A stretch of DNA of 64,000 nt, taken from Callorhinchus milii. Its lineage: Eukaryota. The stretch lies in assembly GCF_018977255.1 (NCBI RefSeq), contig NW_024704742.1:134728001-134792000 (forward strand), given 5' to 3'. Every line of letters starts with the position of its first letter. Position 1 is the stretch's first letter. Shown one piece after another: positions 9,064 through 49,507 of the stretch. The position numbers and the translations under genes are program-made. The notes under the pieces are model-generated. The model was not told the origin of the DNA. It saw only the letters and a program-made list of their open reading frames with translations, and did not search any database.

Positions 9064-9279
<216 letters not shown>

Positions 9280-16090: not shown

Positions 16091-16284
16091 ATTGTAAGCC
16101 TCTAAGAGTTTCCTCAACTATTAATCAGCAGGGAGGGGTCTGCCCTACACTGATGCGGAGTTAGCTTCACAGCAATCACTTCTATCCCCCAGTGCCTTCG
16201 CCTTGCTTCCTCCCTTTCCTCCTTCAAGGCCGGTCTCAAGACCTTTCTCTTTGACCGTGCCTTCAGCTCCCCTCTCAACTCTCT

Positions 16285-16420
16285 ACCCTCTCCTCGCCCC
16301 CTCCCTTCCTTCCCCTCACCCTGACTCTTTCCCCCCTCCTCGCTCCCTCCCCTCACCCTGACCATTTCCCCCCTCCTCGCTCCCTCCCTTCCCTCCCCTC
16401 ACCCTGACCATTTCCCCCCT
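16285..16420 (+). repeat. About three copies of a C-rich ~40 bp unit inside an L2 3' UTR
   Basis: ccctcaccctgac(c/t)(a/c)tttcccccc repeated three times. Confidence 0.85.
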
Positions 16421-17748
16421 TCTCGGGTCCTGACCCAACTGTCCAGCGCTTTGGGACGTCCTCCTGACGTGAAAGGCGCTCTATAAATGGAATCTTCTTG
16501 TTGTTGTTGTTCTATTTAGCAAAGCCTTATGATGCTGATCAAGCAATTGGTGTTGTGTATATTTGGTACATGGTATTGGTCGGACCTCTGAAACATCCAA
16601 AGCTGTCTTTTGTAAGTCCTCCCACCATGCTGTTTTTCAAATAGCTGATGGTGTTTATACTACAGATATGAGGGTGGGCCCTGGCTCACTCTTGGTTAGG
16701 ATGGAATCTTTAAGGTGTAATGGGCTGGATAAGTTGGAGAGGACACCAACGGTTGTTCTTTGGCACTTTTATGGGGCAATACCCTTTACAGCATGATGTC
16801 ACATAATTGGTTTAGAGTTTCTAAGATTGTATCACTTGTCATTTTTACAATGTATTGTAAAGCCTCTTTCTATATCTGGCTTGTGTGGAAAAAGCCAATC
16901 AATAAACCTGCTTGTGCTGAAAGTTGTACTGCAAATAGGATATTGCCTAAAGCAGAATTGAGATGTCTCCTTCCTATAAAAAATTAGGGAGAAATGTACG
17001 AATATTTTTCTTTTTAATTTTGACTATTGACTCTCCAATCTTGTAAATATTTGGAAGAGGACCATGTAATTGTTCATTTGTATCACGGTGCTTCATTAAC
17101 TTTGAGATTTTTATAGTCTTTGTTGTGTGTTATTGGAATACTTTAGTACATTCTGGTGAATTAATTTGTTACTTAAGATGGATTTGATGTCACTCACTGG
17201 TGACCCAAATGGTATTATTCGTAAAGAACCTAGCAACAGGAGGCCATTCAGTGTGAGCCTGTTTGCCAGTTTTAGTTCATAGCAGATCTTTTAATCCCAT
17301 TTCCATTTGTTTGTCTTCATATCCTTACTTTCCAAGTATCAATCTATCTTGATACCTGGGCAGAGTGAAACCTTAGGCAGGTTTCCTTATTCCACATGTC
17401 TCTGTTTACCCTCAGTAAGTAGGAACCTGGTTGTTAGTCGATTGGCGGATTGCTTTCCGAAGGTAGTAATCCCTCAAAGAAAAATTGGTGACTCAATCCA
17501 CGCACTGTGGGACACTGTTGTGTGCAATTAGCTGCTACATTTCACCCACAAAATCCAGTCGCCCACTTTACAATATGTCCTTTGAAGCACTTTGAAACAT
17601 CTCAACAACATGATAATATGCTATATCAGATTAAAGTATTATTATTAATAATAATATTTATAATTGTTGTCCTTAATACCCTTACTTCCTGAGTATCATT
17701 CTATCTCTTGGACATGTAATATTTTATGGCATCTGGCAAATCTGATGA

Positions 17749-17931
<183 letters not shown>

Positions 17932-18093
17932 TAAGTAGCATTGAGTTAAACAGGGAAGGCATGAAGCAATCATTTTGTGTGTGTCAGCCACAGCATGCTG
18001 GAGGCAGCTAACTCAGCAGTTCTTGCACGGGACATGTGATTCAATCTTGAGGCAGAAAGGTGATCAGAGACTTTAGGTTTACTTGATCTATGT

Positions 18094-18299
18094 CAGGGTG
18101 GTCCAACCCTTTGGCTGCTGAGGGCCAGATGCCCTATTGGAGAAACGTCCGGGGGCTGCATAAACAATGTTTGTGTTTCACTTCTTCTAGAAACATAACA
18201 TAACATTTATGTGTTATGGAGCGAGCGGATAGACCAGATGAAATGGAGAGAGGAGGATGGGCTAAGAGCTGTTGGCTGGCTGCCAGTTGTACCACCCTG
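18094..18299. mobile_element. hAT-like non-autonomous DNA transposon (MITE)
   Basis: TIRs cagggtggtccaac (18094) and gttgtaccaccctg (ending 18299); the same end sequence recurs at 23987-24055. No intact TSD. Confidence 0.65.
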
Positions 18300-18812
18300 T
18301 AACTGTTAATGTGAGACTTTAGTTCTTGCCCGGGTAGTTGCATCGAGCAGCATATAGACTAGGATTGGGTGGTGTAGCGAGGGAGATCAAGCAACTAAAC
18401 AGAGAAGCCTGACACCAGGTTCAGTCTTGAGGCAGAAGCATGTGACGATAAAATCTTAAACAGTATCCAGTATTTGAAGTGAAGCGCACTGCTGAACATC
18501 TGCATTGCGACCAATGATGCCTAGATTCTCAAATTTTAGCTGCAAATAGAAAAGGAACATGATTTCTACATGGAGACATCTTGATGACACCAGGGAGTTG
18601 AGAGCCCAAAACATAGCCAATGAAAAATTGTGCACATCAGTGTGATGTGATTTGGAAAGATTTGGTACCTGAAGCTTAAATTTAAAGCCTATATAAATGG
18701 TGCAGAAATATTGTGCTGCTCTAGTAAGAATGCAGCACCGTAGTTTATTTTGTAATGTGTAATGTAATGTTGAAATGGCCTGGGGAAGGATGCCTATGTT
18801 AACGGTTTGTGA

Positions 18813-19016
<204 letters not shown>

Positions 19017-19560
19017 TGAGGACGTTTTCTGGATGTTTCTTTTTTGGGAGAGAAGGTTTTCTTTATTGAAAAATATGGTTACAAAGCTCACAAATCTGAC
19101 AGGAATTGGAATGTTCATTTTTCCTATTATTGGGTTCGCTTTGCCATGTCTTTTAAATTGTTTTTTTAGGTAGAATTGCATTGTATGCAATGAATAAGAT
19201 TGTTAGAGATAATCAATTGCATTGATGTAAAGACTGTGTCTCCAAAAATGCATCTTGCCCCAATCGCTGTATCCCACAAACAGTCATGGATTTTTGGAAG
19301 GGGTTATTACCCCGGAAAGGGATCCACCAATTGACTAACAACTGGGTTCCTACTTCCCACTAGGTCAACAGAAGTGCGTGGAGTAAAGAAATTTGCCCAA
19401 GGTTTTGCCCCACTCGGGAATCGAACGTGGGTCCTCTCGCTTGCGAGACGAGTGTTTTACCAGTATTTTCCTCCCACCTTCTCCTAAATATTCAACCACA
19501 TTTATCATTTTGTGTATCATCTTATAAACAGGTGGCCGGTAACTTTTTTTTGTGTTTCAG

Positions 19561-19620
19561 TGCGGTGTAGAAAATATTAGGAGAGCAGAGTCACTCAATG
19601 GAAATCAACTTTTTATTAAG
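19561..19620 (+). CDS. FECH: Ferrochelatase exon 10
   Basis: tgtttcAG / gtaatg; 60 bp; CGVENIRRAESLNGNQLFIK. Confidence 0.97.
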
Positions 19621-20412
19621 GTAATGTCTGCTTTGGTTTTCAATAATTTTAACCAGGTTACTACATGCCAATCATATACTGGAATTTCGTATTAATACTC
19701 GATGGCTTTTAATTCCAAGAGGTGTGCCAGGTATTGATGAATTGGGTACTAAGTTGACTTTGTTGTATTTGTATCAAGCCTTTTTTGTGGGGTGGGGGAG
19801 GAAGTGAGAAACTATTTGTATTATTTGGACTGAGATCCAGTAACCTGAATGTTGAAGTGAGAGTTGCTTCACAGTGTGAGCTTCAAGCACAAGAGTTTGC
19901 AGACTTTCCATCCTTAAGTGGAGTCCTGTATTGCAGTGGTTAGAGCACTCACCTCACAAGCGAGAGGTCCTGCGTTCGATACGATACGGTCTCGAAGACC
20001 GATAATGTGATAAGGCGTTATATCAAATGCAATATTATATTATTAAGAGCCACCAAAGTCGAGCCCTTGCATTATGACATCTTGGTCAATTTACAACACA
20101 AATCGCCGAATACAACAGAGATCAGTAACTGGTGACTTTTCTTGCTCAACCCAGGGGTACTGAGGCTGCTCTTGAATGCTAAAGAGGAAGATTAAAATAT
20201 TTGGGTGGGTGGGGCGGGGGTTTAAATGGGAGAAGAGGAGAGAGTAGAAAATGCATTTGCTCTGGGCGAGAGATGCTGCTCACTCAGGATTTTTTTCTTG
20301 GAGGAAAAGCGCAGATATTTTATCAATTGATGTGATGTTTAGAGTGGGAGAAAGGTGGGGGTGGAGAGGTTTTTATGAACTTATGAATTAATTGATATTT
20401 TCTCCATTTTAG

Positions 20413-20547
20413 GCACTAGCAGACCTCGTAAACACTCACCTCAAATCAGCAGCAACTTCTTCCAAGCAGCTGAGTCTACGCTGCCCACTTTGTGTTAACC
20501 CTGTTTGTGGAGAGACCAAAGCCTTCTTTGCTAAGCAGAATCTGTGA
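20413..20547 (+). CDS. FECH: Ferrochelatase last coding exon (exon 11) with stop
   Basis: cattttAG acceptor; [48 protein letters not shown]-x2-C-x4-C [2Fe-2S] ligands (C403/C406/C411 equivalents). Confidence 0.98.
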
Positions 20548-21499
20548 AATGGCTCTTGCCATCAGTTTGTATCTCCTCCATAGGTAACGTGAGCTGACGT
20601 GATCACCAGCTTTGGTCCATTTCCAATATCTTGAGTTGACTTCTTGGTTGAGCTTGAATGCTTATATTTGCCCATTTGTCTCTGAAACTGCTATACCTTT
20701 GTTGCAACGATACTTAACATGGAAACTGCACAGTTTCCCTGTCCAAAACTCTGTTACATTTAATACTATTTGACCGCAAGGACAAGCAACTGCAGCAGAC
20801 ACTAGATAAAACTTGAGTCTGACTTTCTTTATTTTAAAACAAAGCCTAAATATCAACAGTGTTATCACAGCAATTAATTAAGACTTCTGTGAAGTTCATG
20901 AAAGTGAGAGCTCAGCACTGATCCCAAACTCTTGTGTAAAACTAAAGCTTAACAGTGTTATTCATGCACTACTTTTGTTACACAGCTAAGGGTTTTGTTT
21001 TTCTTCCATTATTTTTTTCATCTGACATTTTATTTAGTCAGGGAGAGTAGACTTGATATGACGTGCGTATACACGACTATTAATAAGATGTTTACTTTGA
21101 CAGATACTGACACTTTTGTTTAATATGTACACAATAATAATGAATGTATTTAGGTTTAGCCACAGTGCACTGAACAAATTTAATCACTCCGCTCATGGCT
21201 CGCTAGTAGTTCTGACGCGTTTGCAGGAATTGGTGCTGGGAAAATATTAGCTATTTCCAAAAACACAAATGGGAGGGAGTCTGGCTGGGAATGAAAAGGG
21301 GAATATTTCAAAGGGAATGGAAAACTGCAGTTTCTTAAACTATTGCGGTCAATGAAGGGGTTTGACTGTGTGAAACGGTATTAAGTGCCCAAGAATTACC
21401 TGGGTGAAAGAAGACCCAAAGTCCATCCAGTTCGCCTTCCACTATCCTGGCAGTCGCTTGCTCATGTCGTGTCCCAAACTATATATTGTATCCCAAGAT

Positions 21500-31300: not shown

Positions 31301-31363
31301 ACCATCTCCCCAACCTCTCGATTAAGAAACAAACTCCAATTCAGTCTGAATGAATAAAAGCAG

Positions 31364-31369
31364 TTTATT
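31364..31369 (-). terminator. ONECUT2: Candidate distal ONECUT2 poly(A) signal
   Basis: TTTATT on + at the edge of a unique-sequence block; U/GU-rich sequence follows on the - strand, then repeats begin. Confidence 0.6.
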
Positions 31370-34300
31370 GGACACTAATTGCAGAATTTACAGCACTACC
31401 ATTTGATGATAGCGAGAATTAAAGTTTTTTTTCAAAGAAATCAAAAAGAAAAATGAAAGACAAAACAAAAATAACAACAAAAAAACAACATAACAGTAGC
31501 ATGATGCAGGAAGAACACCACTGTGTCTAATGGAGGGCGTATTTATTTTCCAAATACCAAGAACAGTGTACGGGACAAGCAACTGAAACTAAACTGGAAA
31601 AAGGACTGGGAACCTTTGCGAAGGCTTTTAAAGTGCCCGGATACGTCAACAGCAACAACGAGGAAAGCTTAAAAACTATGCAATAGTTGAAACATGTAAC
31701 AGATACAGCATGTTGTAACTCGCGTTATACACAGCTACGGATATTGCACAGCAGTCAGGCGCAAATATTAAGCTTAATAAATAATAATAATAATAATAAA
31801 AAAGGACAATCACGCACACGCAAGGAAGAGGAACTTAACTAACAATCAGCAGTGGGGCTTGCAATACAATTCAAGAAGTTTGTGAGTTCACGCTATATCT
31901 TGTAACTACCAATAGTGGGCAAAAGTAAGTCCAATTAAATTATTAATCAGATTGGCTCTGCCTATCCACGTTCTAGAATACTGATCACTGAAATCAGTAG
32001 AATTTTTGCACAAGTTTCAATTCTCCATAATTTTGGGGGGAAAAATCGTAAGGGAAAGCTGCATTATTTTAATTTTTTTGCATAGTCTTTAAGGAACGTA
32101 CGGGCTGACGATAACAGATTGCTGGTGATGTCGTTTGCTGCAGTGTGAACCACAAAGTTAAGTAGAACGGGAAACTCAGTGGTAGCTCGTTGGAAGGCTG
32201 AAAAGATGGAGAGCTCAGAAGTACCATTCACTGGGGACTGACAACTACTGTCCTTGGTCGGCAAAGGTGGCCATGCTTAAACGATACAATACAATTTACA
32301 TTTATACAGCGACTTTCACCTGGCAAGAAAGTCTCAAAGCGCTTGATAGTGCTGGCTGGGCACCTGAGCTGGGGTGGGAGCAGAAGAGGATTGTGGAGGG
32401 AAGAGATGCCCAAAAGGGAGGTCAAAGAAGTATGTCTTGAGACATGCCTTGAAAGAAGGGAGGGGAGGAGCGAGTTGGAGGAACTCTTGGGTGGAATTCT
32501 GGAGAGCGGGTGTAGAATGGCTGAAAACTCACCTGTCAACAATGTGGTCAATAAGCCCAGGGATATGAAGGAGGCTGGTGTTTACTGACCTGACCAGGGT
32601 ATATTGGGAGGAGGGGGTTGATCTGGCCAATCAAAATGTGATTTTTTTTACAAAATAAAACAAACGCAATAAGCAGGCAATTTAGGGGCATTTCAGAATT
32701 AACTTTTGATAATTATCAAAAATGGCGTGGATTGAAACTCCATAAATTTCACCCCATCAAAACAGCTGTAAAAGATTAGATGGAATCACGAAGGCTGTCA
32801 ACGGGACAGAAACAGGCCATTCAGCCCAATTAGTCCAAGCCTGAGTTTATACTCCTCACGAGCCTTCGCCTCTCCTGATCCCCTCTCATACAGCCCTCTA
32901 TTACCTTCTCCCTCAAGTACTGTACAGTATGCCAAAGGTAAGAAATGTCTCAAGCCCTACAATATTACTCTGGAGATTTATTCCCTTGTTATCATCTCCG
33001 AGAAACTATCCAATATGAAGGACGCTAGATAAATACAAGTTGTTGCTGTTGTTAGTGTTGGAGCTGATTTCCTAAAAGCCTCCTATCAGCTAAGAGCATT
33101 AATGTTTTCTTCCCCACCCCCGGGTGACCTCTATGCACTAACTCCCCTTAAACATTTCTTTAGACTCCAATAAAGTCCCCAGTTGGATCAGAATAACCTT
33201 GCCGACCCAATTACATGTAGTATTTATAGATGCAATGAGGATCCCATTTTTAAAATGTTATTTCCACTGTGTGTTTATCTCACTGAATCAGCTGTAACAT
33301 CCATTAGTACTCGAGCATCCTTTAGTGGTTTAGTGGTTCAGACTCATTTTATGGACTACACAGTATTGTGAGTGGGCAGATTGGAGATCAGAAGCTGGGA
33401 TCATTAAGTTGGGACTGAGTGGCAGCTGTAAAGTGAGGGAGTTTTATTAAAGGCAAATTTGCTTTCCACAGCCTGTGGGGATAATAAAACTTTTAAAAGG
33501 GGGTGATCGACAAAACAAGGAAACCTCCATTGTAGAGGCGCATTTATCAAAAGAATTGAATAGCAATAATAATAATAATTGCATTTGATGTAGCGCCTTA
33601 TCACATTGTTGAATGTCTCAAAACCCTTGACAGGATCTGCTGTAAAATGAAATGTGTGTATTTGTAGGAAAACACATTCAAATACCATAAGTGCAGCCAT
33701 GCCAAAGCGATGGATAAACATAATCAATTGTTATTCAGGATAGCTTTGATTTGAGGGGATGGGGCAATGTGCTCTGGCTCTTTCTATGAGTTAATTTCCT
33801 TTAACCCTTTTGGTTTTAAAGACTATGGGGCATTAATGTAAGATAGCTGGCACCAGATCTAATAGGAAGTTTAGGAGGAACTTCTTCATGCAGAGTGTGG
33901 AAGCGGTGTTCAAAGTAAATAGCATCAACGCATTTAAGAGAGTGCATGCATGAAGCAGAAGCGAATAGAGGGAAATAGGAGAGAGGAATGGTATGAAATA
34001 TGAACACCAGCACAAACTATTTGGGCCAAATTGCCTGTTTCAGTTCTGTTTGTAACTATATGTAACTCAACACAACTTGCATTTAAATTTAACACTTCAT
34101 TCTGAGATCATGTGCACAACTGAGATAAATCGTCAGGTATATCCAGCCTTAAGCAAAATCAAACAACACTGGAGAAATTACGGATCACCAACTACCCTGT
34201 GAGGTGCTTTGAGATGTGCTCCTGACCTGAAAGGCGATATGTTAAATGGAAGGATTATTATTATTATCATCACAAGAAATGGAAAAATCAAGCAAAGAAG

Positions 34301-37300
34301 AAGAGGGGATTTGATGTTGAGTAAGAAATAATTGGTGATTGCAAACAGGAATCACTGATAAATGTCCAGCCAATCTATTAGGGCACTGGCTCCCAGGGCT
34401 GAGGACAAGTCAACATCTCCAAGTCTCATTAATAAGGCAGAGAAGCTAATCAATCAGCAACAATGCTTCAAATTACCAGCCTTATCCATTCAATACCTCC
34501 CATTTACCCTACCTTACCTTATCACATGGATATGCATTTAGACATAGTACTCATTTCGTTCAACACAAAAAAGGGTGAATCCATTTGATCCTAAAACCTT
34601 CTGGTCTCAAAAACCAACGCTCAATTCACAGAACTGCTCAGATGTTTTGAAAGAAATCTGGGAGGGGGTACAGAGATCTACAACAACAGCTTGCATTTAT
34701 ATAGCGCTCTTACGAGGGGCAGTGTCTCAAAGCGCTTGACAGTGGCAGAACGCGATACCAAGCTGGGGGGGGGGGAGCGGGGAGGTGACCGTAAGCACAG
34801 TCGAAGAGGGAGGTCTTCATTCCGGATCTAAAAGAGAAGGAGGGGGCAAGATGGAGGGATTGGGGGAGAGAGTTTGGCTTTGGCGTCTGTGGCTGAAAGC
34901 GCGGCCACAGTTGTTGGAGCAGACGGGACAATGGACAAGTAGGAGGCCATTATCAAGGCGTGATGGATCAATGGACAGCCCTTGTATCCTCTATCAAGAG
35001 AGCAGAGACAGCCCTTGTATCCTCAAGCGTTTTCTACAGACCTGAACACAGGTTGTTTACTCCCCTTGCACACCCAACTTTTGTTCAATGTTCTGCCAGT
35101 CCGGGAGAATTCACTGCATAACAAGGACATCACCAGCAATACATATCTTTAAGCAGATTGAGAAGTGCACATGGAAAAGAAAAGTTACAACAAAAAAGAA
35201 ATTCTAGTGATCTCTTCTCTCGAGTTTTACCAAAAGAATGGACTTTTCATTTTCTGAAAATGGGGAATAATCTCTGGGGAATAATCTTGAACATTCATTG
35301 TCTTGAGTTGCCCTCAAGGTACCTGATTGCTCCAGTAATTTGGCTAAATTATTGTATTAAACACAATGTACATGTATGAGAATATGAATCAGCTTATAGC
35401 TATGAGACTTTGCAATCAGACCAAATTCAACATAAAGTCAAAGAAAATGAATTAAAATGAATAACACCAAAACTCTACAGTCAAACCCAGCCACCTTCAA
35501 ACAGCCAGTGATGGTAAACTGATATTTTCTTTTGTCACAGAATCAAGACTTGCAACATTACTGTCAGAAACTGTTCTTCAGATGCATAATTCGCGCAAGC
35601 TGTTAACACTGTCAACTGAATAGACCATCAACTGGGACTGAATGACTGACAGTGCACAGTGAGACACAATGACCTTCAGATGTGGGTTTGTAGTGGGTGG
35701 GGAGGAAATTCTCTGTGGGTCCAAAGCCAATCCCATTCACAAAATGTTCCTGACACCAATCAAGAAGGATTTCTGTTGTCAGAGCTCACAAGGGTTCTGT
35801 GGACCTCAAGAGCACTTTCAAGGTGCTCAGTCCACAGCTTGGTAAACCTATTCCACAGGTACAGCTGACATTAACACTGCACTGAGTGTGGCCTCCCCAC
35901 CTTTACAGCATCACAAAGTGTACATGGTACAACCCAAGACCAGCTGTGAAGGGTGCATTCATTTTGCAATGGGTGGTCTTTAAGAGAAACCCTTGAACAC
36001 TCGACCCGGGATGGTCTCTCTGAAAATAACTGCATTCCCAACCCTTTTTCAAGGCATCCCATTACGCTGTGGCCAGATGTTTGAAGAAGAACGACCGCAA
36101 CTTTAGCTTCTTGGATCTCAGTCCTCAACTTGAAGGCTGGCCAGGTTGGAGAGATGAATGCTTACACACAAATGGGGCACACAAATTATTACATCATTTG
36201 GCAGGTTGCCATGAAATACACCGGTTACAATTTCAAATAAATAATTTTCCTATAAGTTGAAAGGGGGAAAAGCTAAAGCTATTACAGACATTAATCTTCT
36301 CACATCATTTAATACCATAATTACAGTATTAAAGAAACATTCCTTCCTGGCACGACCAACACCTAAATTACCATTTGAGAAACCTGATTGAGGGAGTAAT
36401 ACACTCCTTTCAATTCCCCCCCCCCCCATTTTTTTAAGAAATATAAATGAAGCACTGTGCATCCTCCCCCAAAAAGCTGTGAATTAATTGTGAAACTGCC
36501 ATTTATAAAGGTTTTTATTTGACCCTCATGAATAGCGAGTGCACAAATTATAATTAATGCAATTCAAAAGCAGCAGCTAATGATACCAGGCACCAAGCAA
36601 GCATCCTTATCAGTGAATATCCAGTTAAATCCTGCCCCCGCTGCCCTCCCCCCCCCACCCTCCCCAATATTACATACAATAAGAGCCACACTGCTGAATT
36701 ATGCTTGGGACCTTTTTGCATCTTCTCCCCCATACACAAAAAAAAATGATCACAGTGCTCGTTTTATGAAGGAATGCTCTTTTTTTTAAAACCAAATTTT
36801 CATCCAAATGTAACACCATGGAAAACATTTTAAGATTAAATGAAAATGTGTCTCTGGGAAAATGTACATAAACCGTGCTGCGTTCTGTAGCCATAAACAA
36901 AGACATTAAAGTCTCGGTGACTGAATGCTATCAAGCCATGAGGCAATCATTGACTGTATTACAACACAACAGACTTCACTGGGACATCAGTTTGTAACTC
37001 ATCATCAGATGGAACTTTACATTGATGAAAATGCTTAATTTTTCTTTATTTGAAAAGAGCGTGCAATTCAGACGTTCAAACATTCCGTGATATCGGACAA
37101 TAACAGCAATGATTTTGAAGAGGGACTAGGATTAGATCTCAGAGGAAGTAATAAGCCTAAAACATCATTGTAAAGGTATAACAGCAATTCGCAACTCATG
37201 TCCCCATCATAGGGCAACAGCATCAGTAAATCCTGCTCCTGATGTCACAGCGATACAATTACAATTACTCCGGCTGAGCCCCAAAAAATTTGGTAAACAA

Positions 37301-39354
37301 TTTGTTCATTTGACTTTTCAATCCAACTTGCCATTTTCCAGGCTTTCCGTATTTCATCTTATGAAGACCCTCGTTAAATATGGGGGATTTAACGAAGAGA
37401 CAGATTTTCTTTAGAATCACTGAGTTGCAAGCTAAGAGGCGAGTGGTGATCTACTCTTAACAGCCCTTTACTGCGTTGGAGTTACGTGTTGGAGTTTGAA
37501 AGACTTTCAGAAATACACTGAACAAACACGGAAGAAATGAACCCACAGCAGTTTTTTGGGGTTAGTACTTCATCACTGTTTGCAAAGTAGCTTTATGAGG
37601 AAACATTGCTTACAAAAGATATCAACCCATTACCCTCCCTGTGCGCACACACACACACACACACCCTGCTCACCCTCTCAGGACTGCTAAAGAATTTCTG
37701 CACCTCATTCAAAAACATAACAAGGCAAACAAAATAAAGGATTTAATTCCAAGCATATCACAATACGCTTAAGAATTTGCTCTTTGGTTCTGCTCATTTC
37801 TGTAATTCTACTCAAAAGGCATCCAGCATTAGTTATTTACAGATAATCTGTCCCTGTAGATTTTCTGACTGAAGAACGACACAACACAAGCATTTTGAAG
37901 GGTGAATTAAAAGCCTTTCAGTGCTCAGAGGGTTAAGCGGGTATATAAGTGGTTGTACTTGTGATTAGTTACCACTTGTCATTATCTCAGTAGCATTAGC
38001 AACACAGTGGAGATCTGGCTATAATTTTCCTTGACCACTCTCTGTTGCCAAAACCTCCATTAACAACTGCAGTGACCTTGTGAAAATCTGGCTCCTGCTT
38101 TGTCAAATGTACAGACTGCCATTATTTCGGGCTTTACAATGTACTTTTTGCTGACGGGGTAAGAATGCCAATGTCAGATTGCTTTTAAGGGGGGGGAATA
38201 AATAGTTCTGCTACAACATACACATAGTTACCACACGTTTTAATATATCCAGTGAAGATGTTTGAGATATCTACCTGATGTGAAAGGCACCAAACCAAAT
38301 GAAAGGATTATTATTATTTCTTATTAAAGGCATTGACACAAAGCACCAACACAGGTGGTTGGAGAAGAAACTACAAGATGGGTGGGGGGGGGAAACAAAT
38401 TGCTACAATAAATCAGGCTTATTTGTTTTAAAGATAAGCGGGGAGTTTCTCCTGGTTTCCTGGCCAACATTCCTCCAGATAAAATTGATCATCTGAAGGA
38501 ACTTACAGTTGCCTGTGGGATCTTTTGACAAATTGGCTACTGCATTTGACTACAAAACAGACATCACTACATTTGGTAACAATTCCCTGTGAGTCTTTTT
38601 GAGATGCTATGATGTTGCAAGTCCTACATCGAACGTAAGGTTTACCATTATGTTGGATAAACGAATACATCAATGGAATTTGTAGGAAATTGGATGGGTA
38701 AATTAGATGAGGATCGATCTGTAATTATTAACCATGTTACCTGGTTTAAGTCAAGCAATTAAGCGGTGATCTATCTACAAGTGAAAGGGACAGGTTTTAT
38801 TTGGAAGTAAAAAAAATCCAGATTTTTAGAAAGAAAGTACATGCAAATGAAATTGATTAAGCATTATCTAATGATGAGATACATGTGTTAAAGGAATCTA
38901 TTTGGATTTTGGATGGGTAGTGAGATGGATCAATGTTCTGCTCCTGATTGAAACTAGTGGTTATTAGTAAATACCCTGATTTTAAATCCCACATGCCCTG
39001 GCACCTCCCTACCTTTCCTGACCTGCTTTCTTCCCACTCCACTACCCGCTGCCTCAGCTCGGCTGGCACTGGCCTCCTGCTTGTCCCTCATCCCCTCCTT
39101 TCCATCATCAGCGGCAGTGCTTTCAGCCACTAAGCCGCAAAGCTTTGGAACTCCCTCCCCCAATCCCTCACCTCCTTCCCTTCATGACTTAAGACCTTCC
39201 TCTTCGACTGTGCTTACTGTCACCTCCTCTCTCCCCCTGGCTCAGCGTCACTGTTAGTTTCTCCGAGAGGCTGCCCTGCATGAAAGATGCTATATAAATG
39301 CAAGTTGTTGTTGATTTTCTCAGCTTTAAACTTGATCAGAGCGAACCTAAAGAG

Positions 39355-39585
39355 GATTGATATTTCACGTTATCTTAGCCAGTAAGACCATTCTGTCCTC
39401 AAATGTAAGATTGCGGAGAACTGTGGACAATCCCTGAAAACTGTCTTAATTTAGACATCAGTTTTCTTAAAAAGAACCAGCTTCTGAATTAAGACTGAAT
39501 TTAAGAATTTTTCACAATTTTGATCTTACATTTTAGGACAGGAGAACATGGTCCTTCAGGCTAAGATTAGATGGAATTTCAGGCC
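39355..39585. mobile_element. Long imperfect palindrome, MITE-like
   Basis: Nested inverted pairs atcttagcc/ggctaagat, ctgtcctcaaatgtaagat/atcttacattttaggacag and gtcttaatt/aattaagac. Confidence 0.75.
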
Positions 39586-41069
39586 ACTCTAATGTTGTAA
39601 GGGGCAACGATTAGACAAGCTCGGGCTCTTCAGTCTCGGTAGAAAGTGTCTCAGATTGGACCTTATGGAAGTGTATAACAAAAGGACATAGATTAAGAGT
39701 TGCAAAACTCAATTTCAAGAGAGAAACCGGGAAGTTTTTCTTTACCCAGAGGGTAATTAATGCCTGGAACAGTTTGCAGGGAGGATCTGGTGGAAGCCCC
39801 ATCACCATCACCATGCTTAAGGACTGAGAGTTCCACAAATGGGTGAAAACGTCCATTTCCTGAATCGAACACAGTCAGTTTATGTCTCTCTATGCTGCTT
39901 GGAACGCAACTGGTCACATTGCCACTGCAGTGCACATCAGGTTCCAAGCTGACCTTGTTTTTATTTTAAACTCAGCATGACTCATGTTCCCAAGTTGATC
40001 TCTCCGTGCAGAACTATTTTCCCCAGCTGCTCAGTTGGACATTCAGATCGGCTCCAGTAGATTTAATATCACTTGAACATTACTTGATGTTCTTGATGGC
40101 ACCCACTCTCCCATTGAAGACTTGCCAGAGCCTGTCCTATCTAATGGGTCTATTTAATGTTTACAGTTCTTAGCTAGGTTTATCAGATTAACGGTGGGGA
40201 GGAATGGGAGGGGAGGGAGTGGGGGGAAGAATCTTCAATTTTAATTTGGAAGTTCTTAAAAACAAACCCAACTTCCAAACTGCAGCCTAGTTTAAGATTC
40301 TCCGCCATGGAATGTAAAGCAAGTAGGAATTGCGAGGAACAATTGACACAAATAAATATTATGGGCAGGAAAGTTTCCGTAAAAGTAACGAAAAACATGA
40401 TTATGATGGGATTTCTGTAACAATTTGTTTGTGGTATGAAAGGGAGGTTCAATAAATGAAGACACTCTCCATCAATCAAATACATAATATTGCTTACTTG
40501 GATTTACAAAGAATTATGCTAAAACAAAGACATATAATAGTTAGTATGTTAAACTTAACAAGTGGCACAAGCATATCTATATGGATGGACTAAGGTTGTG
40601 AGAGGTTGGAAGGTTAAAAANTTAGGGCTCTTTTCACATCCTTTAAAATTTTCCCGGTACCTTGGGACATACTCCCGATGTGAAAGGCACTATACAAATG
40701 TAATTTTGTTGCTGTTGTTCTACAATCATTAATTCCTTTAACCCTTAGAAGAATATAACACTGGCATTCTCTGAAACAGTCACAAATTGTTCATTTGAAT
40801 CCCTGTAAGAATAAGATTTAGGCAAAATCCAATCGTGCATCAGTCAATAATAATGAACTCCCTTTCACTCAGTATTGATTAATGCACAACACACATAGCC
40901 TTTGCATCAACTCACATCTCCTATGATGTACTTCACGCCTTTTTTTGTAACAAAATAAACTTTGGGTATAATGCATACAGAGGCCTGAAGTTCCACCTTC
41001 TCTTAGCCTGTGAGCCCATGTGGTCTTAAAGTTGAAGACTGCTCGGATTAACGTGGGAAAAAGATCTTA

Positions 41070-41382
41070 AATAATAATAATAATTCTTACATTTGACCTA
41101 GCGCTTTTCACGTCTTCTAGACGTCTCAAAGCACTTCACAGAATACATTTCAAAGTGAATTGACTGTATATTTGTGGGCAAAACACGCAGCAAATTGCGC
41201 ACAGTAATGTCCCACAAACAGCCGTGGATTGAATTGATCAATTTATTATTGTTTTTTTTTGAGGGATTATTATTAAGCGTGTGGAGTAAGGAAACTTGCC
41301 CAAGGTTTCACCCTGCCGGGAATCGAACCCAGGTCTCTCACTTGCAAAGCAAGTGTTCTAATCAATGAGCTACAAGACTCCA
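41070..41382 (-). mobile_element. Full-length tRNA-SINE inserted inside a MITE
   Basis: Complete head to tail on the - strand. Confidence 0.9.
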
Positions 41383-44300
41383 CTCGATGTTAATTTGGAA
41401 GTTCTTAAGAAGAAACCCAACTTACAAACTGAAACCAAGTTTAAGATTTCTCCTTAAAACTGGGTTACCTGATGTTTGAAGCCTTATGGGCTAAGACCAG
41501 GTGGAATTTCACGCCTCCTGGTACGATCTGAAACATCGACCAGACTTTGGAAAAGAAATTAGAGTAAAGCATTACAGACATTGTTTTTTTTTTGTACACC
41601 GAGTTTACTCTTTTGTCCTATGGAAGAATACGCATAGCTTTTTGGAAGAAAATAAAACAAATGAACACACACACCCACACACACACACAAACATTTGCTG
41701 ACTGTCCATCCTCTGTTCCAGTTCTATGTTACCCTCATCCTCGTCTTTTGGCAAATAAATAGGACAATAATCATCGAAAACAATATCACTGGTCCCTCGA
41801 CCACGTCAAGCGAAAAACATTCTAGTACAAATAATAAAGAGTGAGGAAAAGTTATGCTATAACTGAATAAATTCTGCTTTGGTTCTCAGTAGGAAACATT
41901 GTTTTACTCTTCACTATGACATGTGACTGTTGGAAGCCATTGCAAATGGCAGTGAATAAATTATCGATGTTCAGATTTCTTTAGTTCACACTAAATCAAC
42001 ATATCAACCCCCATTCCCTTCTCCCCCTCCCCCCCGACCCTCCCTTTTCGTTGCGCGCCATCTTTTCCAAGGTATCGAATTCAACTGTGTTTTGCTCTCA
42101 CAGTCCAGTATATACACAAGTGTTTCACAATCTCTAACGAATAGCAGGTTTTTTTCTTTTTCTCATGCATAAATAAAACCATTTTTTTTTAAAAAAAAGG
42201 AAAAAAAAAATCTATTCTCTTAAATTAAAAAACGTTACTCAATAATCACAATGCATCACCTCGCTAATTTTTTTTCACAGCTACATGCATAAAATCATAG
42301 CACTTTTTTTGGCAGTTGCTAACGTTTTCACACTACACTTGAACACAGAACAATTAGTCAATTAGATCTAAGTAGGACAATGTGGAAATAAACACTTTCT
42401 TTTAAAACACTCGCACTCACGCACACACACAAAGGAAAACAAAGACAACGGATTGTTTCTTTAGTATATGAAAACTGTAAACTTTCGGGGGAGGGGGGTC
42501 GTTCCATGAATATCCCCCAAATACCATTAAACATTACAATCCTTCCATAAGCGCACCAGTCACCTATCACATAAATTACAACTTAAAACGTATAAAGCTT
42601 TTTTTTTCATCATCGTCACAGTTACCAAAAAAACGAGTGAATAATTTATTACATATGCTATAATAACATCACCGTAGATACTATCATCTATGAGGTATAT
42701 CTGAGAAAATTCAGTAAAGAGTCTGCACTGCCAACGTTCTCAATCGGTTTTTCTTAAAGCTTTGGTAATTTAAAGAGAGATAAACAGAGAGATCGATCTC
42801 GATAGACAGATATATAAGACAGATAGATTGATAGAAGGTAGGTAGACAGATAGATTAGAAAGAGGAGAAAACTTTGGTATCTTTGTTTAGTTCTTTGCAT
42901 GGTTGCATTGCAAAGCACCAGAGTACAGTGGCTCACTGGCAACATAAGCAGTGGCCTTGTCAAGCTGAGGTATTCACATGAATAAAAAAATGCACAGAGG
43001 TCTAGAGACTGGAAAGAAACACCGCTTTGGTTCAAGCAAGGCACTCGTCCCGTGGTATATCACACTTTGCAAACTAAAGCGTGCATCTCGATTTTTTGGG
43101 GGGGTTTCTTTTGCGGGTGTAAAACACAGGCAACTTGGTGGTCACCCATTCTAAATGTGCACTATTCTTTTCTGCGCGATCAATTTTTTTTTGTCTACGC
43201 TGGCTGCGTTCGGCTTTTACTTTATACAAAGAAAAAAAAAGATATGAACAATCTTACGATCGTACCAAGGAGCTCAAGTCAGTCACGGTGTTAATAGTCT
43301 TTACATGGTGAATTCTCATTTGGAGCAAATAAGCAAAAATGGCCTGAATTAGATTCCGCTACAGATAGATTCTTCTATTACCACTACACTCCTCAATTTA
43401 CAGATTGTTTCACCGGTAAATGGACGAGATAAAATAAAATTTAAGGGAAGAGGTAATGTACCAATTGAGATGCACTGGTGGGTCCAACATATAATAATGT
43501 AATAATAATAATCCTTGCATTTGATATATACAATGGAATACAATACAACATTAGATTTGTATAGCGCCTTTCACGTTGGGAGGAAGTCCCAAGGTGCTGG
43601 ACTGTCAGGGATTTGTAGGCACAGTTAAAGAGGAGAGTATTCAGGTGCAGGCAAAGCAGAGAGATTTAGGCAAGGGGTTCCAGAGGTTAGGAGCATAGTG
43701 ACTGAAATATGGGGGGGGAAGAGGGAAGGATATGTTTCTAGGCAGGCACCTATCTGCAAAGGATGGGCGGCATTGAAAAGCAGGGATTGGAGCAGTATGG
43801 AAAATGCTGCTGCCACACATGTCTCTGTCCATGCCCAGTGAAACAAAAGGATTCTTCCAGAACATTAACTTGGACCTAATTTGTCATTAAGGATGCCCTA
43901 AAATACATCAGAGCTGTGAAATGAGTGTCTTAGGTCCTTTTACACAACTTTAGCAAATTGTAGAGAGAGTGGTAGATAACAACTGAGACACTCTCTCGGT
44001 GAAATTTCTTTTCAGCAAATTCTAAATTAAAATGTTAACGGATTTCCTTTTGGAGGTGGGGGTGGGGGGGAGGGAAAGGGGGTGTAACATTTTATAACAG
44101 ATTTGGGTTTATTTTTTCCCCCGTAAATATTATATCTTAGAATCCTGTTGAGCTCAGTTCAGTTTACTACAATGGAACAAAAAAATCACAAATTACTTTT
44201 TGTCTTGATTCATTGAACGGGCGAGTAGATTAAAAAAATGGTTTCACCCACAAAATATAGAGTCAATTCACTTTATAGTGTATTGTGTGAAGCGCTTTGA

Positions 44301-47300
44301 GACATCTCAAAGATGTGATAAGGCCCTGTATCAAATGCAAGGATTATTAGTTGGTTAGGGTTGGGTTTTTTTCCGTTTGTGTCGCTAACACTGAAAGGCT
44401 TCTCCGCAAACGAAAGAAGCTGTCTAAAGCCACTATAAGGACACAGGGCTAAACTTTGGCAGAAAGCTTATTAAAAGTATAGACACAGAAGGAATTACCT
44501 GCACATTTTAGGAATAAAAGTAACTGCTTTTGATCTTGAAGCCAAGCTTCTGAGTCAGTCCAGCAGTAACAGCACAGAAAAGAATTTGAGAAAGGTTTAG
44601 AATGAGTGCAAGTCGCCATTCGAATCTTTGGGGTATCTTGAGTTGTAGCTGTATCTAAAAACAGTTTATACATGGGCAGGAAGTTAACGCAGACCACGCA
44701 GAGAAAGAAATCTTTGGTATCTTTGGTATCGATTAAATTACAAATGGAAAATTCAGTGAGGTAGCCTCTTTGGTTCTCACTAGAAGTAGAAAGAGCTTTT
44801 TACACACATACACACACACACACACACACACATACTTCAGACCTGGAAGCAGTTAGTTCAGGATTGGATGGTAGGTTGGTTGGGGTTGGGTTTTTTCCGT
44901 CTCTGTCGCTAACGCTAAAAGGCTTCTCCGCAAATGAAAGAAGCTGTCTAAAGCCACTATAAGGACACAGGGCTAAACTTTGGCGGAAAGGTTATCAAAA
45001 ATATTTCCTGTTATGTATTCACTTTCCCGTCAGTACGTGCTATATTGTTCCACATAAAATCATTGCTCGTCCATGTATTATTAATCAGAGCGAAGGATTA
45101 TTTTCCAGTGCTTATTGTGGGATAATTCTTCACCATTGAAAACTGAAAATGAGAAGTTGCAGTGCTTAAAGACCTAACAACCAAACGTTTATCTATCTCC
45201 TGCGAAAATATGGCGATGCATAATTTGCTCATAAGGTGTTTCAAAAGGCAACAGGATGAAACAAGAGAAGTGCTAAACTGTTACCATTTGAAATAATTCT
45301 AGGATATATTTCAATTAATCTTAATATGAGTAACTTATTGGGTATGACTACCTTGTTGATTTGCAATCTGTTGCAAGCAGTGTTTTGTAACTGTTAATAC
45401 TTTAAAATAATTAAATAAAGAGGGTATTAAGGGGTATGGTGAAATGGCGAGAAATTGGGATTAAAAAGATCTGACAAGATCTGAAACTGGTGAAACAGGC
45501 CTGATGGGCTGAATTGCCTCCTCCTGCTCCTCTTTTAATATGTTCCTTAAAGAGTTTCTGCTATATAAAAAAACAAAGTACAAAAAATGGCATAAAATGT
45601 CATAAATAGAGATCATTTGAAAGCACTGCATCTTTCATATTTCATACACATTTATATTATTTGTTATTTTTTTTTAAAAAATCACCTTTTAAATATATAA
45701 GATCACAATAAATATCCTCAAAATAATACTACTAATCAATCAAATCGATCTTTTCTTGGTTTTTTTCCGAACAAACTTGGGTACTTTTTTTNCCCCTCTC
45801 TTTTTCTACTATTTCTTTCTTTAAAAGAAACGCTTAAACAACAACTTTCAGCTCTTAAGAGGGGAGAGAGAAAAAACAGCGTTATAACATCTGTAGGTAC
45901 CATGACAAGCAATGAAGATATTACGCTCAACTGTGCGAACACGTTAACACACGGCGCATTTCTTACAGCTGAGCGTTGGCAGAACAACACCAGCCAGCCA
46001 CACAGAGAGAAAGTTGCTCATTTCACTCCTCCCTGCAGGCAAGAAGCCCTCAAGTTAGTTGGTCCGATGGTGTCTTTTTTTTCACTCGGTTTCTTTGGAA
46101 TATAGCTTTGGTAAAGAAGAAAACTGAAACATTCCTGGATAAAGCTATTGGACTTAAGAAGTACACGAAAAAAAACGGCACAGTCTTTTTGTACTTTAAC
46201 TTTGTGGTGGTGGGGAGGGGGGGAGGTGGGGTGTGGGGAGAAGTTGAGTTGTTGATTTTATTGGGGTTTCCCCCCCCCCCCCCAGTTTGGTTCTTCAAAG
46301 TTGAACTCATCCATGACGTGTGCTCGGGCTCCATGCACAAGATGTGGAATGAATGTTTTGCACAAGAGAACAGAAATAGAAACTCTTAACTAACTCAATG
46401 CAAAGCAAGATGTCTCACACACACACACACTGTCCGTTGCAACAGTGCATTCCAGTTACCATTAAAACATATCTCTTTGTTCTTCCTTTTTCGTTGTTGT
46501 GCTTCGAGTGGAGAATAGACTTTGGTTTTCATAAACTATTGGTGATTTGTTGATTTTTTTTAACAAAGGAAAAGAAAACGCACATAAATAACGATCGCTT
46601 CGAAGCTATCATGAGGGGAATTACGCCAACTTTTAAAAACACGTGTGAAATTAGCCGTACAATACATTTGCAGCTAATTTGGAATATTGCCTGGGTTGCA
46701 AATTGGAATGGATTCGATCGCTTTGGAAACGCTTTTGAAGAAATAAACATTAAGATTCGATTTAAAATAAATTGGGTGCGATATTTGCCCGACGTTAACT
46801 TAACAATTACGACTTCTGGAGGTTGACTGGAAAAAAATAACAGGAACCACAATAATACAAAGGGAAATGTAATGGATTTGCAAACACCCCCATATTTAGT
46901 TGCATTTATCCAGACATGGGGGATGTGTTGCTATCTTTGGTAGAGGTGATGAGTTTGTATCCCAACATCTTGTGCTTGGAGACGATTGGAATTAATTCCT
47001 TCCTTTGGGAATTGCTTAAAACAGGAGGGAATTGGGAAAGCGAGTAGCCAATTTCCCTCCTAACATCGAAAGATAGGTCAATAGTGCGTTGAGCACTCAA
47101 CTGCAGAGAGAGAGAGAGAAAGAGCACTGTATAAAATCTTCGAAGAGATCCACATCTCTTTGAAGTTGACTTTGGTTGAAGCGGAAGAGGTTTTCTGTTG
47201 TTCTGTACAACTTTTCTCAAAAAGAAAACTGCATAGGCACACGTTAAAGACAATATTCAACTTTAAGAGACAGAGAGCGTTGTTGGTCGAAGCAGTAAAT

Positions 47301-49045
47301 AGTCTGTGGCATTGCTTCCTCCTTTTTTTTTCTTTGTTTCAACCCTATATTTTTTTCTCATTTCATACAAAAAAAAACTGCTTCCCCAAAAAACGACTAA
47401 GACATCCATTGAAACACAGTGTGCACGTTGCTTCCTGACGTGCTTTTGTTTCAGTCTTTTTTTGTTGCAGAACAATTTTAGGTGCAGAAAAAAGTTTCTT
47501 TGGTTTCGATTCAATAATAAATAGACAAAAAAAAGTATCTCAAGAGTCTTCGCCGCTGTCTTTCGAGCCTTTGAACACACCAATGAGCGATCTTCAAAGG
47601 GGCTGGGTTCAGTGGTGAATGTGCACATGTGGGGAATATACAATGCTATTTAGATCTGGCTTTTGTAATGGGGGAGAATGAAGGTGGAAAGCTTTTAACC
47701 TTTGTGCTTCCGCACTCAGCACTAGACAGCCTCTTTATACAGACTACCCAATGGTGAGATTGCAGTACTTAACAGATGTTGCCCTAGCATAGAATCTAGC
47801 TGGAGGGAGGAATGCATAGTAACATGGAGCTATTGGAAACAAAACAATATTTACTCTTCCGGGAGCAAATGGCTCTATTCAGTGTGTCATAGCTGTGTTA
47901 CTTACATGTGTTCATGTGAGTGAGTTGGTTGGTTGGTTGGGTGGGTGATGGTTGGGGGGAGATGGTATGTCCTGATGGGATATTGCAAGAGAAGCCAGTT
48001 TTTGGTTACCGAAAGTACAGGAATGTGCTTGAAGGTTTTGTACTTGCATTCTCGCCGCTGTGACTATAAGTGGCTTAACTGCAAGAGAGCAGGGCATGTG
48101 TTACCAGTGACATTCAATGTGTGTCATGTGTCCATCTTAAACAGGTGGCTAAGAAGTGCCTTTGAAGTCTTTTTGTGCTTGCCTGCTCGCCCTAAATACA
48201 TCGCCCACGCCGAGGGCTTCTTTGGTAACGAGCTAGCATGATTGTGTATGTAAATGGTCACTGACAGTCTGGGTTATAAATGGTGTTGAGTCAGTTTATT
48301 CCACCCACCAAAATGGATTTAGTGTAGTGTTGCTGGAAGCTGAGAGGGAAAATGAGCGAAGAAAGCACTCGGTGACATCAGGTGCCCCATTTTCTCATGG
48401 TTTTAGCCTTACATTTTAAAGCTGTGAAGAAATTTCATAAAATGTCTCAATCTGGTCTTACTTTGGTTTTCCTCAGTCGACCGAAACAAAACAGTTTGAA
48501 AATAAGACCAGATTTTGCAAAATTTTGCCCGGCCTTAAGTTTGGAGCCAATAGTCCTAAGTCTAACACCACAAGATATTTTGGAATCCTCTGATGTGACG
48601 TTGATGGATCCCAAAGCAGAGAACTTTGCAGAATATTGCTCAGCAACACAGCTCTCAGTTACTCTGCCTGGCATCATCTGCCAACTTTCCATTAATGAGA
48701 CAGTTTCCCCATTCAGCTAACAGCATTGCTGCCTCCCTACTTCCCACCACCAACAACAATAAACACTTTGGGGGTGGATTTAGATGCAGGACAAGGTGGG
48801 TATTTGGAGTTGAGGTACAGATCAGCCATGGTCTAATAGAATGGCGGAACAGGCTCAAGGGGGATGAATGGACTAGTCCTGTTCCCATGTTCCCAGGACG
48901 GACGGAAAGACACAGTGCTTCTGTACGTGTAACGCATAGATTGTGCTATCGCACTCACCACTGAACCCAGTCTCTTCAAAAGAAAAGGGGAGAAAGATTA
49001 GACGGCTTTGAGTATCGTGCCCAGGTTCTGGAGCACTTTCCTCAA

Positions 49046-49338
49046 TCATGCTTTGGTGCAAGTGCTAGAGGTGGAAGATGAAGCCCCTGGGCTCGAAAGG
49101 GCCTCATCCTGCCACTTGTCTAAGCTTCTTCTCCGGGCGTTCATAAAGAAATTACTGACCGTGCTCAGTTCCAGGCCCAGCTGTTGCGAGATTGTGATCT
49201 GCATCTCCTTGGAAGGGCGTTTGTTTTCCTTGAAAATGGCAAAAAGAGTCCGGCGCTGGAGGTCGGTGAAAACTAGCCTTGCCCTCTTTGGTGTATTGTT
49301 CTTCTCCTTGTTCTGTTCTTGTTCCTTGCGTTTGCACG
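49046..49338 (-). CDS. ONECUT2: One cut homeobox 2, terminal coding exon (homeodomain)
   Basis: C-rich tract plus AG acceptor at 49340-49339; ACKRKEQEQNKEKNNTPKRARLVFTDLQRRTLFAIFKENKRPSKEMQITISQQLGLELSTVSNFFMNARRRSLDKWQDEALSSPGASSSTSSTCTKA-TGA. Atypical F48/M50 ONECUT homeodomain; the DLQ/LFAIF/EMQ residues and tail-to-tail position next to FECH favour ONECUT2. Confidence 0.95.
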
Positions 49339-49507
49339 CTGGAGTGAGGGGAGGGGGTTGGGTGGTGGTGGTGGGGGGTGGGGTGGGTGGGGGGGGGGAG
49401 AAGGAGGCAAAGGAGAGAGAGAGAGAGAGAGATGCTCAGAATCTATTCAATTTCGAATCGCTTCATTCCATACATTAATTCCTCTTCACAACTTATTACC
49501 GAAGTTG

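What the first reader, a model, noticed from the sequence alone, without database searches (positions are those of the whole stretch)
41877..48467. Extreme cluster of miR-9 seed sites in the ONECUT2 3' UTR
Seen: CTTTGGT on + (ACCAAAG in the mRNA, complementary to miR-9-5p nt 2-8) occurs at least 13 times in ~6.6 kb. Sites: 41877, 42760, 42872, 43025, 44711, 44720, 46106, 46520, 46934, 47170, 47497, 48219 and 48461. Five are full 8mers, including a tandem pair TCTTTGGTATCTTTGGT at 44711-44727. More occur at 37781 and inside the CDS (49051, 49285). A uniform-base expectation is under one site. Known: ONECUT2 is a miR-9 target in mammals. Inference: multi-site repression, or sponge-like behaviour, dates to the jawed-vertebrate ancestor.
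Basis: partly seen in the sequence, partly recalled or inferred. Interest (0 to 1): 0.7.

Follow-up and report, generated by a model that had tools for sequence, protein, structure and literature searches.

The report
Ancient microRNA cassette in Onecut tails
Downstream of this elephant-shark ONECUT2 gene lie 14 matches to the brain microRNA miR-9, as already known for mammals, and the core of the cluster (with let-7 and miR-124 matches) is shared almost letter for letter by all three Onecut genes, so this likely microRNA brake probably predates the genome doublings at the origin of vertebrates.

Summary
There are 14 miR-9 seed matches (not 13; six are 8mers, not five) on the ONECUT2 sense strand in 41877-48467, none on the other strand; shuffles give 0.84 (max 4 of 1000). 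The gene is ONECUT2 of the elephant shark, the genome encodes the matching miR-9, and contigs of a probably-RNA run cover parts of the region. The cluster itself is known: human and mouse OC2 carry 13-14 conserved sites with reporter, CLIP and knockout support. Repression is better supported than sponging. New here: ONECUT1 and ONECUT3 of the same genome share two collinear blocks with it (miR-9 + let-7, a tandem miR-9 site, an identical 25-mer holding miR-124 + miR-9, a second let-7 site), found nowhere else in 991 Mb. I found no paper describing it in ten searches; key papers were unavailable. The scan earlier noted a miR-218 cluster in ONECUT2 of another cartilaginous fish, not this miR-9 cluster or the cassette. 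Binding in the shark is untested.

The parts
49046..49338 (-). ONECUT2 last coding exon (homeodomain to stop); exon 1 lies about 23 kb further on, beyond the window (G000:C1:134800186-134801388)
   Evidence: a contig of run X2 stops fitting at 49341 with 25 letters left over, where a spliced mRNA would stop fitting
31364..49045 (-). Inferred 3' UTR, about 17.7 kb; holds 7 8mer, 8 7mer-m8, 2 7mer-A1 and 9 6mer miR-9 matches
   Evidence: counts; end inferred from the poly(A) motif shared with ONECUT3; length not shown by raw reads
46106..48467 (-). Proximal group of seven miR-9 sites (48461, 48220, 47498, 47170, 46935, 46520, 46106), interleaved with five miR-218 seed matches; no BLAST-detectable counterpart in the paralogues
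44704..44785 (-). Block 1 of the pan-Onecut cassette: miR-9 8mer (44767-44774), let-7 8mer (44757-44764), tandem miR-9 8mers (44720-44727, 44711-44718)
   Evidence: BLAST E about 9e-15 to both paralogues; alignment A1; 20-mer found only in the three Onecut genes; mouse primer flank
43025..43049 (-). Block 2 core: 25 bases identical in all three Onecut genes, holding a miR-124 7mer-m8 (43038-43044) and a miR-9 7mer-m8 (43025-43031)
   Evidence: also exact in unnamed vertebrate contig L025
42872..42972 (-). Block 2 tail: let-7 7mer-A1 (42966-42972, all three genes), miR-29 7mer-m8 (42914-42920) and miR-9 site 42872 (both shared with ONECUT1 only)
   Evidence: the miR-29 seed is recalled, not taken from this genome
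41877..42766 (-). Two distal miR-9 7mer-m8 sites (42760, 41877)
37781..37788 (-). Isolated miR-9 8mer in the inferred distal UTR; that stretch as a whole is not enriched (1 seen, 0.98 expected)
31347..31396 (-). Putative terminal poly(A) region (AATAAA 31364-31369), similar to the ONECUT3 region 7.8 kb after its stop
   Evidence: BLAST 78% over 51 nt, E 6e-4; not found in the 19.6 kb fetched for ONECUT1
49046..49066 (-). Last seven codons with a miR-9 7mer-m8 just before the stop; synonymous bases identical in all three paralogues
   Evidence: 6 of 6 same-residue codons identical versus 8 of 57 in the homeodomain part

Best explanation
The 14 words are seed matches for miR-9 downstream of the ONECUT2 stop codon, and they likely let miR-9-loaded Argonaute destabilise and translationally silence the mRNA, switching this early-neuron transcription factor off as miR-9 rises. 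Shown here: enrichment, strand bias, gene identity, miR-9/let-7/miR-124 genes with matching seeds in the same genome, and two blocks shared by ONECUT1, 2 and 3. Inferred: that all sites lie on one mature mRNA; that the shark sites are bound; that the shared blocks descend from the single Onecut gene that preceded the first vertebrate genome duplication (three paralogues from two rounds must include a pair split at the first round); and that ONECUT2 later added sites around that core and spread it apart (the blocks are 222-223 nt apart in ONECUT1 and 3, 1743 nt in ONECUT2). Many sites would make the transcript respond to low miR-9 levels; let-7, miR-124 and miR-29 sites would add further inputs.
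For: 14 versus 0.84 expected, 0 on the opposite strand. The base facing miRNA position 9 is A or T in 15 of 15 sites of the inferred UTR versus 2 of 8 matches elsewhere in the window, Fisher P 3e-4 (the A/U preference at this position is recalled). Three mir-9 loci in G000, all with seed CTTTGGT; let-7, miR-124 and miR-218 seeds read from G000 loci. ONECUT1 has 8 sites in 5 kb (0.65 expected) and ONECUT3 5 in 7.85 kb (0.69 expected). After masking repeats, 2 of 3 OC2-OC3 hits, 2 of the 3 OC2-OC1 hits with E<1e-4 (8 hits in all) and 2 of 2 OC3-OC1 hits contain miR-9 sites; all five invariant runs of 6 or more bases in the two alignments contain a miR-9, let-7 or miR-124 match. The 24-mer (2 mismatches allowed) and 20-mer (1 allowed) occur only in the three Onecut genes, reversed controls 0. 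An ONECUT1-type UTR from another, unnamed vertebrate keeps the whole cassette. Unique contigs of run X2 cover sites 48461, 47498, 46935, 43025 and 42872. Literature: reporters for human OC1/2/3 UTRs and the strongest PAR-CLIP signal on a tandem pair with seeds 2 nt apart (PMC10914762, passages); a mouse reporter fragment starting at the block-1 flank is repressed and rescued by mutation (PMC10913399, passages); Onecut1/2/3 rise in miR-9-2 knockout retina (PMC13060328, passages); site number tracks birth order (bioRxiv 10.64898/2026.10.02.755877, section 10).
Against: No binding, reporter or expression test in any cartilaginous fish. Run X2 is only guessed to be RNA; contigs give no strand and none spans the region. 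Five AATAAA hexamers inside or near the cluster (48295, 46257, 44108, 42645, 41242) could give shorter isoforms. Three conserved pairs are closer (gaps of 1, 2 and 6 nt) than the 8-60 nt cooperative range (PMC5101187 section 14), so they may not be bound together. Sites are no more accessible than anagram 7-mers (P 0.32). One study found full-length human OC2 mRNA resistant to miR-9 in prostate cancer cells (PMC10356556, passages). Seeds explain only 14 of the 25 invariant bases of block 2. No human, lamprey or amphioxus sequence could be aligned, and I built no tree; the ohnologue status rests on literature passages and recall.
Confidence: 0.8

Rival explanations
1. The UTR acts mainly as a sponge (ceRNA) that binds miR-9 without being silenced and so frees other miR-9 targets.
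For: PMC10356556 (first part and passages) reports resistance of full-length human OC2 mRNA to miR-9 and effects of the overexpressed UTR alone. Closely spaced sites need 2-5 times fewer copies to compete (PMC5101187). 26 six-base cores in the inferred UTR.
Against: Competing sites must reach about 10-40% of a miRNA's target pool, and derepression with paired sites needed about 7e4 transcript copies per cell (PMC5101187); a transcription-factor mRNA is far rarer (recalled). Loss of miR-9-2 raises Onecut in vivo. No structural shielding of the sites predicted. The RNA is a linear, translated mRNA.
Confidence: 0.12
2. The paralogue-shared blocks are conserved for something else (an RNA-binding-protein site, an RNA structure or a DNA enhancer) and only contain the seeds.
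For: Invariance extends beyond the seeds: 25 identical bases with 14 in seeds; weak shared hairpins are possible.
Against: All five invariant runs centre on seed matches; strand bias 14:0; consensus folds are weak (-2.4 and -4.9 kcal/mol) with a two-sided change in 1 of 12 and 0 of 8 pairs.
Confidence: 0.06
3. The cluster is a by-product of composition, repeats or local duplication.
For: The region holds SINE-like pieces, microsatellites and a 128-bp tandem duplication; the interval was picked after seeing the sites.
Against: 0 of 1000 shuffles; survives genome-wide correction; no 7mer-m8 site lies in a repeat-like interval or in the duplication, which carries only two 6mers; repeated in both paralogues.
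Confidence: 0.01

Closest known systems
miR-9 target cluster of mammalian ONECUT2 (human 13 conserved + 13 non-conserved sites in a 14,575-nt UTR, PMC10356556; mouse 14 conserved, PMC10913399 and bioRxiv 10.64898/2026.10.02.755877; passages read)
   Same: Orthologous gene; 14-15 7mer-m8/8mer sites; very long UTR; a tandem pair with seeds 2 nt apart as described for human sites 7+8 (PMC10914762); a mouse primer flank matches 16 of 18 bases beside site 44767.
   Different: Cartilaginous fish, beyond the human, chicken, frog and 'fish' named in the preprint; inferred UTR about 17.7 kb; function untested; site-by-site orthology not aligned except for that one flank.
miR-9 targeting of all three ONECUT genes (OC1, OC2, OC3 top TargetScan targets; PMC10914762, passages)
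   Same: All three shark paralogues are enriched for miR-9 sites.
   Different: The passages I read treat each gene's sites separately; none says that the sites are homologous between paralogues or come with shared let-7 and miR-124 sites.
Neighbourhood and seed-overlap miRNA co-targeting (PMC9650897, passages)
   Same: Deeply conserved, closely spaced sites for the same and different miRNAs; several seed-start spacings here (37, 42, 47, 52, 59 nt) fall in the 15-100 nt synergistic range.
   Different: Three conserved pairs have seed starts only 9-13 nt apart, between the two described classes; conservation here is across ancient paralogues rather than human to coelacanth.
miRNA sponges / ceRNA (OC2 UTR as ceRNA, PMC10356556; CDR1as recalled)
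   Same: Many seed matches for one miRNA on one RNA.
   Different: Linear coding mRNA with about 15 strong sites; knockout data show it is itself repressed; abundance unknown.
Duplicated conserved non-coding elements shared by vertebrate ohnologues (recalled; no paper read)
   Same: Short non-coding blocks shared by paralogous developmental regulators on different chromosomes.
   Different: These lie in the 3' UTR and consist of miRNA seed matches rather than enhancer sequence.

Membership tests
Canonical miR-9 target 3' UTR | 7mer/8mer matches to miR-9-5p nt 2-8 on the sense strand above chance | tested here: met
   14 vs 0.84, 0 of 1000 shuffles, 0 antisense
Canonical miR-9 target 3' UTR | The miRNA is encoded in the organism with that seed | tested here: met
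   three RF00237 loci over cut-off, seed read from them
Canonical miR-9 target 3' UTR | Sites lie in the mature mRNA downstream of the stop | tested here: inconclusive
   unique contigs of probably-RNA run X2 cover 5 of the 14 sites among the 8 pieces listed, and one ends at the splice acceptor; no strand, no spanning contig
Canonical miR-9 target 3' UTR | Sites conserved in evolution | tested here: met
   3 of 14 sites shared by all three paralogues, 5 of 14 with ONECUT1; cassette kept in L025; one mouse flank. The other 9 sites not tested across species
Canonical miR-9 target 3' UTR | Seed-dependent repression and Argonaute binding | not testable with these tools
   shown for mammalian orthologues in papers, not for the shark
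ONECUT2 orthologue | CUT plus homeodomain protein with OC2 identity and ST8SIA3-ONECUT2-FECH neighbourhood | tested here: met
   the human gene order is recalled
miRNA sponge / ceRNA | Site supply comparable to the miRNA's total target pool | not testable with these tools
   no abundance data; threshold from PMC5101187 makes it unlikely
miRNA sponge / ceRNA | Transcript escapes silencing, e.g. by structure | tested here: inconclusive
   site accessibility equals anagram controls, P 0.32; weak consensus folds
Target-directed miRNA degradation trigger | Seed match plus extensive, conserved 3' pairing | tested here: not met
   only site 44626 has a 9-nt 3' helix (nt 13-21, offset +9); 71 of 5000 background draws reach it, and it is absent from the matching paralogue stretches
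Duplicated conserved non-coding element from the vertebrate genome duplications | Collinear non-repeat blocks shared only among paralogous loci | tested here: met
Duplicated conserved non-coding element from the vertebrate genome duplications | Host genes are ohnologues of the two duplication rounds | tested here: inconclusive
   three genes on three contigs; one Onecut in amphioxus, Ciona and fly, three in mouse and human (PMC10515288 table); onecut genes beside duplicated myo5 genes (PMC6372264); no tree built

The most novel reading that the evidence does not exclude
All vertebrate Onecut genes inherit one roughly 300-400-nt microRNA cassette (miR-9/let-7, tandem miR-9, miR-124/miR-9, let-7, miR-29, miR-9) fixed before the first genome duplication. 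It is the ancestral timer input that shuts off early-neuron identity, and its 1-6-nt site gaps were kept for over 500 million years because they impose either-or occupancy, or a tighter-than-textbook co-binding, by different microRNAs.
Probability: 0.4. Interest if true: 0.68.

Novelty: new member of a known kind. Interest (0 to 1): 0.45.

Why it matters
The site cluster is a known property of ONECUT2, here extended to a chimaera. The shared cassette matters more: it would date the miR-9/let-7/miR-124 control of Onecut, central to current models of neuronal birth-order timing, to the vertebrate stem. It also points to about 110 bases, out of a 15-18 kb UTR, as the part to mutate when deciding between repression and sponging, and gives natural, long-selected examples of very closely spaced sites for testing Argonaute spacing rules.

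Tried and rejected
No RNA holder listed: none of the 12 runs was on record as RNA. Parts without cover: at 98% likeness X2 had no depth in 7 of 30 bins, including 44415-45437 with block 1, and sister run X9 showed depth in 9 of 30 bins with only short repeat-like pieces listed; neither is used as evidence. X2 contigs also cover 33001-39317 and one has 1466 letters left beyond 33001, but contigs cannot show a transcript end. X1 looked flat in depth and may be DNA. A first accessibility test looked positive (P 0.005) but vanished with composition-matched controls (P 0.32). My first null for the 9-nt 3' helix included the site itself and was redone. ONECUT1 UTR positions were 142 nt off and were corrected. 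TGGTAAC (P 7e-4) and the miR-9-3p match AGCTTTA (P 8e-3) do not survive testing of all 7-mers. Conserved structure in the blocks: weak. Literature: 10 searches; none listed a paper on paralogue-shared Onecut UTR sites, and six cassette words were in 0 papers. ONECUT was in 0 of the LncLOOM supplement files searched, file 5 unsearchable (PMC7798263). Madelaine 2017 and Denzler 2014 were not held; Luxenhofer 2014 seen only as a citation; a guessed id returned an unrelated paper. Figures and the preprint's supplements (Fig. S6, cross-species sites) could not be seen and may bear on novelty.
Full report
Observation. The listed sites are real, and there is one more: 14 CTTTGGT on + in 41877-48467 (14 of 22 in the window), six of them 8mers, and no ACCAAAG on + in that interval. 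Dinucleotide shuffles give 0.84 on average and never more than 4 in 1000; both flanks are at background; the word is the most over-represented non-microsatellite 7-mer under three Markov orders. The excess survives correction for all windows of the genome (1.4e-7) and for all 7-mers as well (0.002). No site falls in a repeat-like interval.

The gene. The minus-strand exon 49338-49046 encodes a homeodomain with the residues of human ONECUT2 rather than HNF6 at the three positions where they differ inside the homeodomain core, although HNF6 scored slightly higher overall. Exon 1 lies about 23 kb beyond, and its protein is 100% identical to the UniRef Callorhinchus milii ONECUT2 entry. A sialyltransferase exon lies upstream and FECH converges downstream, the human order as I recall it. 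The genome has three Onecut genes: this one, an HNF6/ONECUT1-type gene on C26 and one on C21 that I call ONECUT3 from recalled residues. It encodes three mir-9 hairpins with seed CTTTGGT, plus let-7, mir-124 and mir-218.

Is it in the mRNA? Not proven. Run X2, guessed to be RNA, has a 534-base contig that fits 48833-49341 and leaves 25 letters over. Exon 1 and the intron both end in CAG, so a spliced mRNA would stop fitting at exactly 49341; I did not see the loose letters. Other unique X2 contigs cover five of the sites. A 51-nt poly(A)-signal region at 31347-31396 resembles the one 7.8 kb after the ONECUT3 stop (E 6e-4), suggesting a UTR of about 17.7 kb, against 14,575 nt in human (PMC10356556). 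Five internal AATAAA could give shorter forms.

Signs of selection as miRNA sites. The base opposite miRNA position 9 is A or T in 15 of 15 sites versus 2 of 8 matches elsewhere in the window. ONECUT1 (8 sites in 5 kb) and ONECUT3 (5 in 7.85 kb) are enriched too. The sites are not more accessible than anagrams, and extended 3' pairing is absent except at one unconserved site.

After repeat masking, the strong similarities among the three UTRs are two collinear blocks. Block 1 (44704-44785) has a miR-9 8mer, a let-7 8mer two bases later, and a miR-9 8mer that is a tandem pair in ONECUT1 and 2. Block 2 has 25 bases identical in all three genes with a miR-124 and a miR-9 match six bases apart, then a let-7 7mer-A1; ONECUT1 and 2 also share a miR-29 match and another miR-9 site. 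All five invariant runs of six or more bases hold a seed match. The 24-mer and 20-mer occur only at these three loci in 991 Mb. The blocks are 222-223 nt apart in ONECUT1 and 3 and 1743 nt in ONECUT2. The one metagenome hit, L025, is an ONECUT1-type UTR of another vertebrate, 80-83% identical to the shark's over two long stretches, with the whole cassette and ONECUT1-specific variants, which argues against recent gene conversion. A published mouse OC2 reporter primer matches the window once, 16 of 18 bases, abutting site 44767 (0.21 matches expected at up to 3 mismatches); that fragment carries three miR-9 sites and was repressed. The human tandem with seeds 2 nt apart is the strongest PAR-CLIP site in OC2 (PMC10914762) and matches the geometry at 44712-44727, though I could not see its sequence. 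Amphioxus, Ciona and fly have one Onecut and mammals three (PMC10515288); onecut genes sit beside myo5 genes traced to the two duplications (PMC6372264). Three copies from two rounds must include a pair split at the first, so the cassette is inferred to predate it. I built no tree and had no cyclostome sequence.

Mechanism. Most likely graded repression: reporters, CLIP and a knockout support it in mammals, and a 2026 preprint links site number to neuronal birth order, citing conservation in human, chicken, frog and fish. Several spacings (37-59 nt) fit cooperative binding (PMC9650897; PMC5101187), but three conserved pairs have gaps of 1, 2 and 6 nt, which those papers expect to hinder double occupancy; why they persist is open. 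Sponging is claimed from overexpression in cancer lines (PMC10356556) but needs site numbers near 10-40% of the target pool (PMC5101187). Conserved structure is weak.

Novelty. The miR-9 cluster in ONECUT2 is known; this is a new, older member. I found no description of the paralogue-shared cassette in ten searches, but Madelaine 2017 was not held, figures and preprint supplements were not visible, and TargetScan users could have seen it. Earlier scan notes gave a miR-218 cluster in another cartilaginous fish, nothing like block 1, and the same species name. Verdict: real, mostly known, with one testable evolutionary addition; interest 0.45.

Noticed in passing
window 46498-48180 (-): Five miR-218 7mer-m8 matches in the first 2.6 kb of the UTR (5 vs 0.70 expected over 8.2 kb, 0 of 300 shuffles; seed read from this genome's mir-218). 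An earlier scan note reports a similar cluster in another cartilaginous fish.
   Followed up: partly
window 49046-49066 (-), L004, L006: The last codons of all three Onecut genes keep identical synonymous bases (6 of 6 vs 8 of 57); the stretch holds a miR-9 match before the stop and a 7-mer that fits the miR-430/302-type seed (recalled). Nucleotide-level constraint of unknown cause.
   Followed up: partly
window 44626-44655 (-): A miR-9 7mer-A1 site with a perfect 9-nt match to miR-9 nt 13-21 upstream (duplex -20.3 kcal/mol); 1.4% of background draws reach this, and it is not in the paralogues.
   Followed up: partly
window 44878-45004 and 44353-44480: A 128-bp direct duplication (91% identical) on either side of block 1, each copy with a miR-9 6mer; a second, 64-bp duplication lies near 41390-41450 and 40240-40300.
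   Followed up: no
window 48220 and 47498 vs L004 and L006: Two proximal 8mers share 12-13 identical bases with the first site of ONECUT3 and of ONECUT1 respectively; possibly further ancestral sites below BLAST detection.
   Followed up: no
window 1420-20610 (+): FECH exons, convergent with ONECUT2; its stop is near 20610, about 11 kb from the inferred ONECUT2 end.
   Followed up: partly
G000:C1 and C21: Two of the three mir-9 loci lie on the same contigs as ONECUT2 and ONECUT3; the C21 copy has a one-base change at mature position 10.
   Followed up: no
window 41100-41370, 43500-43760, 44230-44350: SINE-like insertions inside the inferred UTR; one sits between blocks 1 and 2 and contributes to their wider spacing in ONECUT2.
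   Followed up: partly
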